Source of the DNA: Eledone cirrhosa
Lineage: Eukaryota
Assembly (NCBI GenBank): GCA_964016885.1
Contig: CAXHJY010001637.1
Span: 1-64,000 of the forward strand
DNA length: 64,000 bases
Reading direction: 5' to 3'
The notes beneath the pieces were generated by a model, which was not told where the DNA came from, searched no databases, and saw nothing but the letters and a program-made list of their open reading frames with translations. Below, piece after piece: positions 14,361 to 48,953 of the stretch (position 1 is its first letter; every line of letters starts with the position of its first letter). The position numbers were made by a program, and so were the translations under genes.

Positions 14361-14454
14361 ACCCCTTGATAAGTTCGGCTATTTAAATACCAGAATAAAT
14401 TTTCATTCAGTACAGAATTAGCCGTCGAAACGGCTTGAGCTCAGCCGTCGGGGT
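14361..14454 (+). ncRNA. Type I HHR with U3-A8 core, long stem II, GUC cleavage triplet (C17 at 14449)
   Basis: ACCCC-TTGATAA-G..CGGCTA[~40 nt]TAGCCG.C-GAAA-CGGCT(tgagctc)AGCCG-TC-GGGGT, then ~12 nt and (TA)n. It may terminate the PLE starting at 11490 (inference; would need a ~2.2-kb 3' UTR). Confidence 0.8.
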
Positions 14455-14676
14455 CTTACTTGTTCCTATATATATATATATATATATATATATATATATA
14501 TATATATATATATATATATATATATATATATATATATATATATATATATATATATATATATATGTATATATATATATATATATATATATATATATATATA
14601 TATATATATATATATATATATATATATACATATATATATATATATATATATACATATATATATATATATATATATA

Positions 14677-14866
14677 TAACGAAGGAAATGTGGTAAGGAA
14701 CCAGGTGGACCATAACGCACCAAAGTACTCAATACTTGAGGTAGTAGAGTGGGTAATAGGAACCAGTAAGACCCCGACAGCTGAGCTCAAGCCGTTTCGA
14801 CGGCTAAGTCCAGAATTAGCCGTCGAAACGGCTTGAGCTCAGCTGTCGGGGTCTTACTGGTTCCTA
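14677..14866. mobile_element. Fold-back pair of terminal fragments of the 14361-HHR family, inverted inside stem II
   Basis: 14757-14807 is the inverse of 14816-14866 around cggctaagtccagaattagccg; the left arm has an ~80-bp tail. Confidence 0.9.
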
Positions 14867-15159
14867 TATATATATATATATATATATACATATATATATA
14901 TATATATATATATATACATATATATATATATATATATATATATATACATATATATATATATATATATATATACATATATATATATATATATATATATATA
15001 TATATACATATATATATATATATATATACATGTATATATATATATATATATATATATATATATACATATATATATATATATATATATATATATATATATA
15101 TATATATATATATATATATATATATATGTATATATATATATATATATATGTATATATAT

Positions 15160-15427
15160 GTAGATAAATCTACCAAGAGTTTACGGTAGTGTCCAATCCG
15201 TATGAAGGACTCAATGTAATCCGGATATCATGGAAAGAAGAGATGCATTCAAAATCACTTTCGGTGAAAGATAAACGGAATACAGAGTCAAGATAAAGTA
15301 TTAAAAAAATAATGAATAAAACAATGAAACAGTTCCTTGTATTAAACAAAAAAAGTTCATGAACTTTTTTTGTTTAATATACGGAACTGTTTCATTGTTT
15401 TATTCATTATTTTTTTAATACTTTATG
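15160..15427. mobile_element. Spacer-less palindromic insertion (~67-bp arms) with a ~130-bp tail
   Basis: 15293-15359 / 15360-15426 around gttca|tgaac; (TA)n flanks; no HHR seen. Confidence 0.8.
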
Positions 15428-15822
15428 TATATATATATATGTATATATATATGTATATATATATATATATGTATATATATATATATGTATATATATATAT
15501 ATATGTATATATATATATATATGTATATATATATATATATATATATATGTATATATATATATATGTATATATATATATATATATATATATATATGTATAT
15601 ATATATATATATATATATATGTATATATGTATATATATATATGTATATATATATATATGTATATATATATATATATATATATGTATGTATATATATATAT
15701 ATATATGTATATATATATATATATGTATATATATATATATATGTATATATGTATACTTTTTAAATGGAAGTTGAAGTTGTAAGGTATGTCAAATCTATCT
15801 ATTTATAAGACTGTTTATATTG

Positions 15823-15888
15823 TATTTTGTCTGATGAAGGCATACCATATTTTTAATATGATATCCCTGAAATATATATAATGAAATA
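15823..15888 (+). ncRNA. Minimal type I HHR in a ~265-bp island (15752-16017)
   Basis: tattttgt-CTGATGA-aggcataccatatt(ttt)aatatgatatccct-GAAA-tatata-TA-atgaaata; stem III region is an AT palindrome. Confidence 0.8.
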
Positions 15889-44827: not shown

Positions 44828-47674
44828 GGGGATTAATTAACACAATAACGCAAGAATACAGACAAACTCTTACTGTTAACACGTAATATCTCCAATATTC
44901 GCGGAGCCGATGTGAAGCACGTCTATGCCATCCGGAGATAGATAGATAGAGAGAGGGAGCAGTGATAGCCCGTTTCATATTGAACGTAATCTAGGTGTTT
45001 GGGGGATTTTATGAATCCGAGCTGCTGTGATTATTGTAACATGGATTATAAGTGTGTGAAAGAATATATTATCGTGTGCATGTGTCTGTATATGTATGTA
45101 TGTGGATATATGTGTGTGTATGTGTATGTATGTGGATATATGTGTGTGTATGTGTATATATGTGAATATATGTGTCTATGTATGTATATGTGTGTGTATG
45201 TGTATGTGTGTGTATGTATGTGTATGTATATGTGTGTATGTGTACGTATGTGTATATATATGTGTGTATGTGTATATATGTGTATGTGTATATATGTGTG
45301 TCTATTTGTTGTTTTAGTTGTAATATATTCATTCTACAGGCTTTAGTTACTTTAAGGCTGCGATGTTGTTTTACCAACTCACTCCTGTTTTCGTTCATAC
45401 TTTACTCTCTGCATAGCTTATTGAGTTCTGTTTAATATTCTTTAACAAAGTACATTTAACAAAAATATGGGATATAGTATTGTTTTTCTTCGGACTTTAT
45501 TTTGTAAAGTTTTCAAAGGATGTTTAACGTCTTTTTCTTAAGGATTATTGCTAGGCTATAAGGTGTAAATCCATAAAAGTGAATTATTAAAGGATTTTAT
45601 GAGACTTGGTAAAATTCTAAAGGATGTGACGTGTGAATGAGGAGAAATAAATATTCTTATGAAAAAACAAAATGATTAAAATATTAATAACCTCAACAGA
45701 GGACAAAATAGGACCAGAAATAACATTTTATAAGTGGAAATGCTAAAATAAATAACGGGGAAAAATACATTTCTTCATGGAGATTATATTTTGAGAATAC
45801 ATAAGCCCATTATGTTGTAGTTTTCAACAAATTCTTAAAATTGAAACTGAATGATTTGAAATAATTTCGCACAGCAATGAAGACACCTGGCGTTCTTGCC
45901 ACACCACACCTCCGACCATGTCACTACTCACTGCTATCGGAACGGAGCGGAGTTGACAGACAGCATCTACAAACCCCACAAGGTGGAGTGACTGTTCCAG
46001 CGCGTCTTCCCTTGACCACATGCTCCCTCACTGATTTCGGAGCAGAGTTGACCGCTTGTATGTACAAGCCCCACAAGTGGAGGGGCTGTTCCAACGTGGT
46101 CTCCCTCGCCATCCTCCAGGGCAATATATTTCCCATCCTGTCAGCCAGGATCCAGAGGCGGAGGGTCAGTTAGTTGGAGGTGGAGGATATTCGTTCGGAC
46201 ATCACTTTCTTTCTATTTCTTTAATGCTGTGTCCTTATTTATGCTGTGTCCTGTCACATACTCACCAACATGAAATAGATATAGTTAATTAGTTACCTAC
46301 CTAACTGTGTGTGCTTGCACACTTTACAAATTATTCCCTGTGATTGTTTCATATGTTTATTTTATACATATATACGTCAATCTATTTCTAGTTGATATAA
46401 AATGCTCGGATCTATTCATTTGAATCTTATGTAATATATAATACACACACACACACACATATATATATATATATATATGTGTGTGTGTGTGTAGGTCGAC
46501 TTAAACATGGTTTCACTCCAGCTAAACCATTGGTTTATCATTAACTACCCACGATCTGCTATGTTACGTGAATACAATTATCTGACGTACCCCACGGATT
46601 ATATCTCGGAAAGTTTTGTTCTACATCATTGTTGATTGTAATAACATATTAAACTGTGATTCGGTCTTGTTATTTCATAAATTACATCTCTCTATCTACA
46701 ATTGGTTTTATATATATATATATATATGTGTGTGTGTGTGTGTGTGTGTGTGTGTGTGTGTGTGTGTGTGTGTGTGTGTGTGTGTGTGTGTGTGTGTGTG
46801 TGTGTGTGTGTGTGTGTGTGTGTGTGTATGTGTGTGTGTAAACAAAGAAAGAGCGATAGAGAGTTTATATATATATATATATATATATATATATATATAT
46901 ATGTATATACATAGTTACATACATACATAAACATACATATATATATATATATATATATGTATATAACCCCCCCTCCCCACACACACACACACACACACAC
47001 AAATATATATATATAAATATATATATATATATATATATATATAACAATCAAATGACTATTAGCTCATGATTTAACAATACATTGTTAAAGGAGAGGACAA
47101 AGATACAACAAATGTAGAGTTTCCATTTCTGAATACGAGGGAAGATACAGGTTCAGGAATTAGGAAGATTGGCTTACACAAACTTACGAGAAAAAACACA
47201 TAAAAATAAAGGTTAAACAAATAAAAAGGTAAGTAAAAATATAAAAAATAAAAACATCTTAATTAAATACATTGGAAGACTAAACGCAAACATTCCCCAC
47301 TAAACGCAAACCTTAAGATTGATGAAGCTTTAATGCAGCGAAAAGGAAATGTAATGAAAACTGTCAAGACATACATGAAGCCGTTTAATACACCATCTGG
47401 CCAACAACACTGGTCTGAATTACTTTCAGAGTTGTGATTTAAAAACATACACGTAAGATCGATATTACCTCCGACGTCACATTAGTGGTGGATGTTTAAA
47501 ACTGACACCCGTCATTACTAACATAAACCACTGCCTCTCTTACCCTCTTCTATCTATCTATCTATCTATCTATCTATCTATCTATCTATCTATCTATCTA
47601 TCTATCTATCTATCTATCTATATATAGATATATATATATTGATATAGATATATATATCAATATATATATATATA

Positions 47675-48120
47675 TATATTAAGATAGGGGGGAAGAAAAA
47701 ATGGCTTCACTTGTGCTTTCAACAAATTTATTTTCTTCACAAAATCCAAAAAGAATTTTTCTTAAAAAAAATTATTTTATAAATTAAGTTGTTGGTTGTT
47801 GGTTAGGTCTTAGGAGTTCTTGGTTAACGTAGGAGGTATTGTTTCGTTTTTAGAAAGACCTTTCACGCTGAGGTGCGCTTGTCAACTCATGTGTATGTGG
47901 TGTGTTGTTCTATATATAGGGATTTAACATGTCTGTGGTGTGGTGGGGGTTTCTTTTCTCCAACAACCAACAACTTAATTTATAAAATAATTTTTTTTAA
48001 GAAAAATTCTTTTTGGATTTTGTGAAGAAAATAAATTTGTTGAAAGCACAAGTGAAGCCATTTTTTCTTCCCCCTATCTTAATATACCTAACTGTACCAA
48101 GGATTACACACATTTTCCAA
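47675..48120. mobile_element. Fold-back insertion (~127-bp arms, ~157-bp spacer, ~35-bp tail)
   Basis: 47675-47802 is the inverse of 47960-48086. Arms contain GTGAAGA...GAAAGCAC, at best a decayed HHR. Confidence 0.85.
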
Positions 48121-48268
48121 TATATATATATATATATATATATATATATATATATATATATATATATATATATATATATATATATATATATATATACATT
48201 ATGAAGAGAGAAGAAACATTTAGATATAATTAGTAATAAAATGTATCATACCTAAACTGCCCCTAAAT

Positions 48269-48358
48269 TCCTCGACTACGTAGTTTCGTGGCATAAACAA
48301 AAACAATATATCATAAAGACATAGAGTCCCTGCGAGGTCTGCCGACTTATCAAGAGGA
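48269..48358 (-). ncRNA. Type I HHR, U3-A8 core, long stem II insertion, GUC (C17 at 48274)
   Basis: UCCUC-UUGAUAA-GU(C)GGCA[~46 nt]UGCCAC-GAAA-CUACGUAG-UC-GAGGA; stem III is the palindrome ACUACGUAGU. Confidence 0.85.
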
Positions 48359-48863
48359 TATCTCATTTTACTAGTCTCAAGAACGCGTCTACACGACGTG
48401 AGAAAGAATCCCAAAAGGCGGAGGGGGAGATAGTCACGCGATATAACGGTCGAGAAACAGAGCTAAGCCTCTTATAACCACGAAGAAAATACCACGGAGG
48501 CGGAGGGGGTATTCATATCGAGGCCGCAGAAGAGGTGGTGAAGAAGGCTAGAAGTATGAGTAATGGAAGCTTTCCAGTTGTCCCCTCACTTCAAAGATTG
48601 CTCGACCAGAGGGAGTTATTAACAATATATTTAGAAACACACAGATACATGCGGACACACACATATATACATGAATGCATCCGCACCCAACTGTGAGTTA
48701 AGGGTGCCAACTTCACCGATGTTGCTCAATGAATGACCGGGACAGACCAATTCAGTTGAACTAGACTGAACCAGTATCAGAGTTAAAAGTACATTATGAA
48801 GAGAGAAGAAACATTTAGATATAATTAGTAATATAATGTATCATACCTAAACTGCCCCTAAAT

Positions 48864-48953
48864 TCCTCGACTACGTAGTTTCGTGGCATAAACAAAAACA
48901 ATATATCATAAAGACATAGAGTCCCTGCGAGGTCTGCCGACTTATCAAGAGGA
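48864..48953 (-). ncRNA. Second identical U3-A8 HHR, 595 nt upstream (C17 at 48869)
   Basis: Same motif. A third copy on + (49090-49171) starts mid-core at ATAAG. Confidence 0.85.

What the first reader, a model, noticed from the sequence alone, without database searches (positions are those of the whole stretch)
14361..48953. Recurrent U3-A8 core covariation (UUGANAA) across unrelated hammerhead families
Seen: UUGAUAA (14366, 48269/48864, possibly 2225), UUGAAAA (28187/29317) and UUGAGAA (35581) sit where CUGANGA should, each between paired stems I and II and followed by GAAA (CAAA at 35581). Established: C3-G8 is a tertiary Watson-Crick pair in the active fold, and U3-A8 is a rare functional natural variant. 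Inference: the same double change in 4-5 independent families points to selection for activity rather than decay. It may also explain why some PLE lineages are reported to lack HHRs.
Basis: partly seen in the sequence, partly recalled or inferred. Interest (0 to 1): 0.75.

Follow-up and report, generated by a model that had tools for sequence, protein, structure and literature searches.

The report
Swapped-core hammerheads in Penelope retrotransposons
Five families of jumping elements in this animal genome end in a predicted self-cutting RNA whose core carries a known U-A instead of C-G pair; the swap likely arose at least three times here, but one branch spread to 1,420 copies with the pair broken, so perfect cutting may not be required.

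Summary
Real, and mostly known. All listed sites are type I hammerhead motifs with a UUGANAA (U3-A8) core at the 3' end of five repeat families: two Hydra-type and one Neptune-type Penelope-like element (PLE), a 595-bp tandem non-autonomous unit, and a weak fifth. Together about 29,000 motifs genome-wide. The CAAA at 35581 is private to that copy. The three autonomous carriers do not form one lineage (AU p=0.0066), so at least three origins are likely. A census with positions 3 and 8 free gave 23 C3-G8, 4 U3-A8 and 0 mismatch families, which supports selection on the pair. Against the strict reading: a young C3·A8 mismatch branch of family A has 1,420 copies versus 4,449 U3-A8, and A's sister family has A at U4 in about 15,000 copies. 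U3-A8 is published, in PLEs too (PMC3088659, PMC4209133), and this scan noted it before in this and other genomes. The carriers belong to clades already scored hammerhead-positive, so this does not explain the 'missing' hammerheads of Naiads. Cleavage is untested.

The parts
14361..14454 (+). Family A hammerhead, UUGAUAA core at 14366-14372, 5-bp stem I, long stem-loop II, 5-bp helix III; predicted cut 3' of 14449
   Evidence: 4,449 U3-A8 pattern matches genome-wide
13463..14470 (+). 3' untranslated end of a 5'-truncated Hydra-type PLE (family A), ending in (TA)n 20 nt after the predicted cut
   Evidence: full copy with the motif at both ends of the ORF in L337
48864..48953 (-). Family B hammerhead, UUGAUAA core, palindromic helix III (predicted dimer type)
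   Evidence: 6,116 lineage matches, 99 of first 100 U3-A8
48269..48358 (-). Second family B hammerhead, one 595-bp unit downstream
48256..48860 (-). 595-bp non-coding tandem unit of family B (retrozyme-like); inverted partial copy at 49089-49411
   Evidence: no PLE ORF linked in 60 loci
28187..28224 (-). Family C minimal hammerhead, UUGAAAA core, 4-bp stems I and II, palindromic helix III
   Evidence: 16,083 lineage matches, 100 of first 100 U3-A8; Neptune-type ORF about 1 kb upstream in other copies
29317..29354 (+). Inverted partner copy of family C, private stem I mismatch next to the core
35581..35622 (-). Family D minimal hammerhead, UUGAGAA core; this copy has a private G12C; weak stem I
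   Evidence: 2,126 lineage matches, 99 of first 100 U3-A8
35917..36759 (-). 3' part of the family D ORF: Hydra-type GIY-YIG endonuclease with CxCx5C linker
2225..2327 (-). Family E, possible degenerate hammerhead with UUGAUAA core in a short non-coding repeat
   Evidence: 406 matches, 98 of first 100 U3-A8
5963..6011 (-). Comparator: family G motif with CAGAAGA core (C3-G8 kept, A at position 4), sister lineage of A
11250..11294 (+). Comparator: family F motif with CCGAAGA core (U4C); inverted copy at 10358-10402
22172..22214 (+). Comparator: canonical C3-G8 minimal hammerhead of another PLE (also cores at 16909-, 20969-, 33114+)
34104..34148 (-). Comparator: canonical C3-G8 hammerhead, the only one Rfam lists (HH9, 31.8 bits, under the cut-off of 52)

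Best explanation
These are type I hammerhead motifs at the 3' ends of Penelope-like retroelements and their non-coding derivatives, predicted to cut the element's RNA, in which the core pair C3-G8 was likely replaced by U3-A8 at least three separate times. The likely route is two transitions fixed one after the other in a master copy; elements that restore a Watson-Crick pair are favoured, so the double change dominates. The constraint is real but loose: these ribozymes are expected to be slow and to work as dimers, and at least one lineage has amplified with the pair open. Shown: motif anatomy, copy numbers, position in the elements, non-monophyly of the carriers. Inferred: cleavage, dimer folding, selection, order of changes.
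For: Motif at both ends of full ORFs in A (L337) and D (L339, L340), 1 kb behind the ORF in C (L344). A is sister to a C3-G8 family (97/98) and an A+D clade is rejected, p-AU 0.0066, on 26 endonuclease peptides; C is 21% identical to A and D in RT. All Hydra hammerheads in File S2 of PMC8557442, one from Octopus, are CUGANGA, so U3-A8 is derived. Census with positions 3, 4, 8 free: 23 C3-G8, 4 U3-A8, 0 mismatch among 27 multi-copy clusters (Fisher p 5.7e-5, families not fully independent). Core and stems identical between B and B2 at 77% overall identity; stems covary around an unchanged U3-A8 core in relatives of A (L285) and C (L227; 76 of 78 U3-A8). U3-A8 is stated to be active in vitro and natural (PMC3088659 section 8).
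Against: C3·A8 in 20 of 20 fetched copies of subfamily A2 (median difference 0.7%), 1,420 matches genome-wide, in at least two subfamilies. Family G amplified to 15,446 matches with no U at position 4 in the first 100. D and E have weak stem I; a C-related family reads GCAA for GAAA. No pile-up of copy 5' ends at the predicted cut in six families. Minimal PLE hammerheads cleave poorly in vitro (PMC4209133). Copy counts reflect master elements, not independent tests.
Confidence: 0.68

Rival explanations
1. Catalysis is dispensable: the fold is kept as a structural signal (for example for RT binding or 3' end definition) and core letters drift.
For: 1,420 C3·A8 copies, position 3 changes at least 3 times in lineage A; A4 in about 15,000 copies; U4C in two clusters; no 5' end pile-up at the cut. 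Naiads amplify without canonical hammerheads (PMC8557442).
Against: G5, A6, A9, GAAA and UH persist in all families (partly by descriptor design); drift alone predicts more single than double changes, yet 4-5 lineages are double and 1 single; B, C, D show 1 or fewer mismatches in 100.
Confidence: 0.2
2. One old U3-A8 hammerhead spread between elements by exchange of 3' ends, so the families are not independent.
For: PLE copies nest in the same (TA)n tracts and form chimeric ends; parents of B and E unknown; the tree is of proteins, not of the motif.
Against: The five motifs share no similarity beyond the core (longest match 18-19 nt, E 0.016 or worse) and differ in all three helices.
Confidence: 0.08
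3. Chance words or mutational decay in an AT-rich genome.
For: GC 32%; 49 UUGANAA words in the window; C>T and G>A are common transitions.
Against: 0.01 full motifs per shuffle, 0 in decoys, thousands of near-identical copies, covarying stems.
Confidence: 0.04

Closest known systems
U3-A8 minimal hammerheads of Cercyon PLEs, Schistosoma mansoni (Cervera and De la Pena 2014, PMC4209133; parts 1-2 of 4 read)
   Same: Same core swap, in PLE terminal repeats, type I, palindromic helix III, about 1,300 hits reported.
   Different: Here in Hydra- and Neptune-type elements and a tandem non-autonomous unit, about 29,000 motifs, origins mapped on a tree, plus a C3·A8 branch.
Natural U3-A8 hammerheads (Perreault et al. 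2011, PMC3088659; section 8 and passages read)
   Same: C3-G8 covaries to U3-A8 in several natural ribozymes; stated to be active in vitro.
   Different: No family-level comparison of double and single changes there in the parts read.
Hydra-clade PLEs (Craig et al. 2021, PMC8557442; passages and supplement parts 2 and 54 of 59 read)
   Same: RWK/DKT motifs, CxCx5C linker, (TA)n targets, 3' hammerhead.
   Different: All Hydra hammerheads listed in File S2 are CUGANGA; families A and D here are U3-A8, F is U4C, G has A4.
Animal non-LTR retrozymes (PMC7229834, passages; bioRxiv 10.64898/2026.07.22.740005, part 1 of 5 and passages)
   Same: Family B: non-coding tandem units, one type I hammerhead each, PLE-like inverted insertions.
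   Different: 595-bp unit is longer than the roughly 170-400 nt given there; circular RNA not shown here.

Membership tests
Type I hammerhead ribozyme | Core N3-UGA-N-N8-A, GAAA, UH in type I order | tested here: met
   A-E family majorities; window D copy has private G12C
Type I hammerhead ribozyme | Watson-Crick pair between positions 3 and 8 | tested here: met
   U3-A8 in A-E; not met in the A2/A3 branch
Type I hammerhead ribozyme | Three helices around the core | tested here: inconclusive
   Met for A, B and C (monomer stems I-II, dimer helix III in cofold); weak for D, poor for E
Type I hammerhead ribozyme | Self-cleavage | not testable with these tools
   Needs an assay
Rfam hammerhead families | Score at the gathering threshold | tested here: not met
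   0 matches at gathering in the window; no hammerhead at E up to 10 on the A and C motifs alone; the canonical motif also falls short
Hydra-clade PLE (families A, D) | RWK, DKT, CxCx5C linker, CxH, C-terminal GIY-YIG, (TA)n target | tested here: met
   D all; A has RWR for RWK; motifs as described in PMC8557442
Hydra-clade PLE (families A, D) | Placement with reference Hydra RTs in a tree | not tested
   Reference proteins were not available as tool sequences
Neptune-clade PLE (family C) | GxKF, DKG, CX2-5CxxC linker before a C-terminal GIY-YIG | tested here: met
   L344, L349; long linker spacing resembles Neptune rows of Fig. S2 (by eye); Nematis not excluded by a tree
Naiad/Chlamys PLE (reported to lack hammerheads) | N-terminal endonuclease | tested here: not met
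   Endonuclease is C-terminal in A, C, D
Non-LTR retrozyme (family B) | Non-coding tandem units with one type I hammerhead each | tested here: met
   595-597-bp arrays
Non-LTR retrozyme (family B) | Circular RNA in tissues | not testable with these tools
   No raw RNA reads were offered

The most novel reading that the evidence does not exclude
Penelope-element hammerheads need not cleave efficiently: one genome holds a matched natural series (C3-G8, U3-A8 fixed at least three times, a 1,420-copy C3·A8 branch and a 15,000-copy A4 family sister to it), showing retroelements that keep the fold but spread with cores expected to be crippled.
Probability: 0.25. Interest if true: 0.6.

Novelty: new member of a known kind. 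Interest (0 to 1): 0.36.

Why it matters
The function of PLE hammerheads is stated to be unclear (PMC8557442). This genome supplies near-identical natural variants of one ribozyme (U3-A8 versus C3·A8 in family A) with genome-wide copy numbers, so cleavage rate can be set against transposition success. Practically, CUGANGA-only descriptors miss about 29,000 motifs here, roughly 6 of 94 motif calls in an unselected 1.19 Mb.

Tried and rejected
Rfam scans found no U3-A8 motif (top 150 of 416 and of 206 rows seen; 101-103). RNA evidence: no RNA holder listed; four contig sets of unknown kind were laid and cannot show ends or strand. Parent of B: none in 60 loci; the endonuclease upstream in L223 belongs to an older element that B interrupted. 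Parent of E: none in 30 loci. A seeming C3-G8 sister of D (L265) was a single outlier: 19 of 20 further copies were U3-A8 or U3-A8 with another change, one U3-G8. Copy 5' ends do not pile up at the cut. Whether the C3·A8 branch is autonomous is open: the one locus read (L390) held two truncated copies. The DNA tree of lineage A (15 rows, 163 columns) did not resolve the direction of change. The D fold used a stretch that cut the motif short and was not used. Three papers with kinetics or structure of the 3-8 pair were not held, so rates for single mismatches are from recall only. Searches for prior reports; none listed a C3·A8 or A4 PLE family, but only an open-access library was searched and supplements of PMC4209133 and PMC3088659 were not read.
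Full report
Setting. The window is the first 64 kb of contig C1664 of an unnamed 3.0-Gb genome, 32% GC, full of (TA)n tracts and retrotransposon pieces.

Observation. All listed sites carry UUGANAA followed by a hairpin, GAAA, a short helix III, UH and a strand that pairs with the bases before the core. They fall into five families: A (14361-14454, +), B (48864-48953 and 48269-48358, -), C (28187-28224, -, and 29317-29354, +), D (35586-35622, -) and E (2225-2327, -). 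A folds by itself into the three-way junction. B and C have palindromic helix III and form it between two copies in cofolding, as described for minimal PLE hammerheads (PMC4209133). The CAAA in D is private: 40 of 42 rows read GAAA. D's stem I is weak; E's stems I and III are poor and E does not fold as a hammerhead. A full strict U3-A8 motif arose once in 100 shuffles of the masked window against 4 real ones.

What carries them. [quoted passage not shown] C lies about 1 kb behind a 734-aa ORF with GxKF, DKG and a Cx4CxxC linker, Neptune type. B is a 595-bp non-coding unit in tandem arrays with a relative B2; E is a short non-coding repeat; no parent was found in 60 and 30 loci. Clade names rest on motifs read from the paper, not on a tree with references.

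Abundance. Exact patterns over the whole genome: lineage A 4,449 U3-A8; B 6,116, C 16,083, D 2,126, E 406 matches with positions 3 and 8 free for transitions, of whose first 100 listed 99, 100, 99 and 98 were U3-A8; reversed-pattern controls 0. A canonical family gave 17,511, 99 of 100 C3-G8. In 119 evenly placed 10-kb stretches the permissive descriptor made 94 calls: 79 C3-G8, 6 U3-A8, 1 U3-G8, 1 C3-A8, 7 others; reversed decoys gave 5, none U3-A8. U3-A8 is thus a minority core, and this window is richer in it than average. Contigs of four runs under four organism labels show no other letter at B's positions 3 and 8 where covered; one may be the source sample.

Independence. On 26 Hydra-type endonuclease peptides A is sister to family G, whose core keeps C3-G8 (97/98), while D groups elsewhere (89/91) with C3-G8 families. 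Holding A and D together is rejected, p-AU 0.0066. C shares 21% RT identity with either; the five motifs share nothing beyond the core. Every Hydra hammerhead in File S2 of PMC8557442 is CUGANGA. At least three origins are therefore likely, provided the motif travels with its ORF. Several tree tips have no hammerhead assigned.

Selection. Among 28 clusters of two or more copies, one was dropped as the same place seen twice; 23 were C3-G8, 4 U3-A8, none a mismatch (Fisher p 5.7e-5; 0.009 on a rough hand collapse to 11, 3 and 1 lineages). A-D were sought because the window showed them, and families share ancestry. Core and stems are unchanged between B and B2 at 77% identity, and stems covary around U3-A8 in relatives of A and C.

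Evidence against. Following two odd copies revealed a branch of A with C3·A8 in 20 of 20 copies, 0.7% apart: 1,420 matches genome-wide, against 47 U3-G8 and 5 C3-G8. It occurs in at least two subfamilies, and position 3 changes at least three times while A8 stays; a distant relative is U3-A8, which suggests the mismatch is derived, but the tree is unresolved. The census missed this branch, so others may exist. A's sister family G has 15,446 matches, none of the first 100 with U at position 4, and a very young family has U4C. Copies do not begin at the predicted cut. So the pair is usually kept, yet large amplification is possible without it, or the branch is moved in trans.

Mechanism. Likely: the element is read as tandem or read-through RNA, the hammerhead cuts it to unit length (alone in A, as a dimer in B-D), and RT copies past the junction, leaving ends 20-80 nt beyond the cut (model from PMC4209133). 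That U3-A8 restores the tertiary pair and is active is stated in PMC3088659; that single mismatches are much slower is recalled, the primary papers not being held.

Known. Natural U3-A8 was reported in 2011 and in Schistosoma PLEs with about 1,300 hits in 2014. Earlier notes of this scan describe U3-A8 repeats in this and other genomes (unchecked). The lineages reported to lack hammerheads are Naiad and Chlamys, with N-terminal endonuclease, searched also with relaxed cores; none of the carriers here is of that kind. Other notes propose a re-ordered hammerhead for Naiads (unchecked).

Verdict. A real new instance of a known variant. What is added is the count of origins within one genome and a natural mismatch branch that makes the role of cleavage testable. 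Interest 0.36.

Noticed in passing
L350-L369, L390 (branch of window 14361-14454): Subfamilies with a C3·A8 mismatch core, 1,420 pattern matches genome-wide; autonomy unknown.
   Followed up: partly
window 5963-6011 (-): Hydra-type family G with CAGAAGA core (A at position 4), 15,446 matches; sister of family A on the endonuclease tree.
   Followed up: partly
window 11250-11294 (+), 10358-10402 (-), 8510-8584 (-): Very young family F with U4C core (top 40 copies 100% alike); a relative at 8579 has canonical U4 and a changed but still palindromic helix III.
   Followed up: partly
L185:3195-3253, L165:281-340, L186:2744-2803: C-related family with U3-A8 and GCAA in place of GAAA in several copies, a likely dead or further variant core.
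   Followed up: no
window 14361-14454: A 7-nt word occurs in both stem II and helix III of family A, allowing an alternative hairpin over GAAA; possible folding switch. The C3·A8 copy folded differently in silico.
   Followed up: no
window 48288-49041: Runs X4 and X5 each hold one 620-621-nt contig spanning one B unit; fits a circle or a tandem array equally, run kind unknown.
   Followed up: no
window 16909-22176: A PLE with RT and endonuclease ORF pieces in tandem and inverted arrangement, with three canonical minimal hammerheads; family has 17,511 matches.
   Followed up: partly
window 23552-26347 (-), 29944-32943 (-), 39276-44836 (-): A 931-aa intact endonuclease-RT ORF with a second copy, and a second, frameshifted non-LTR retrotransposon; clades not determined.
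   Followed up: no
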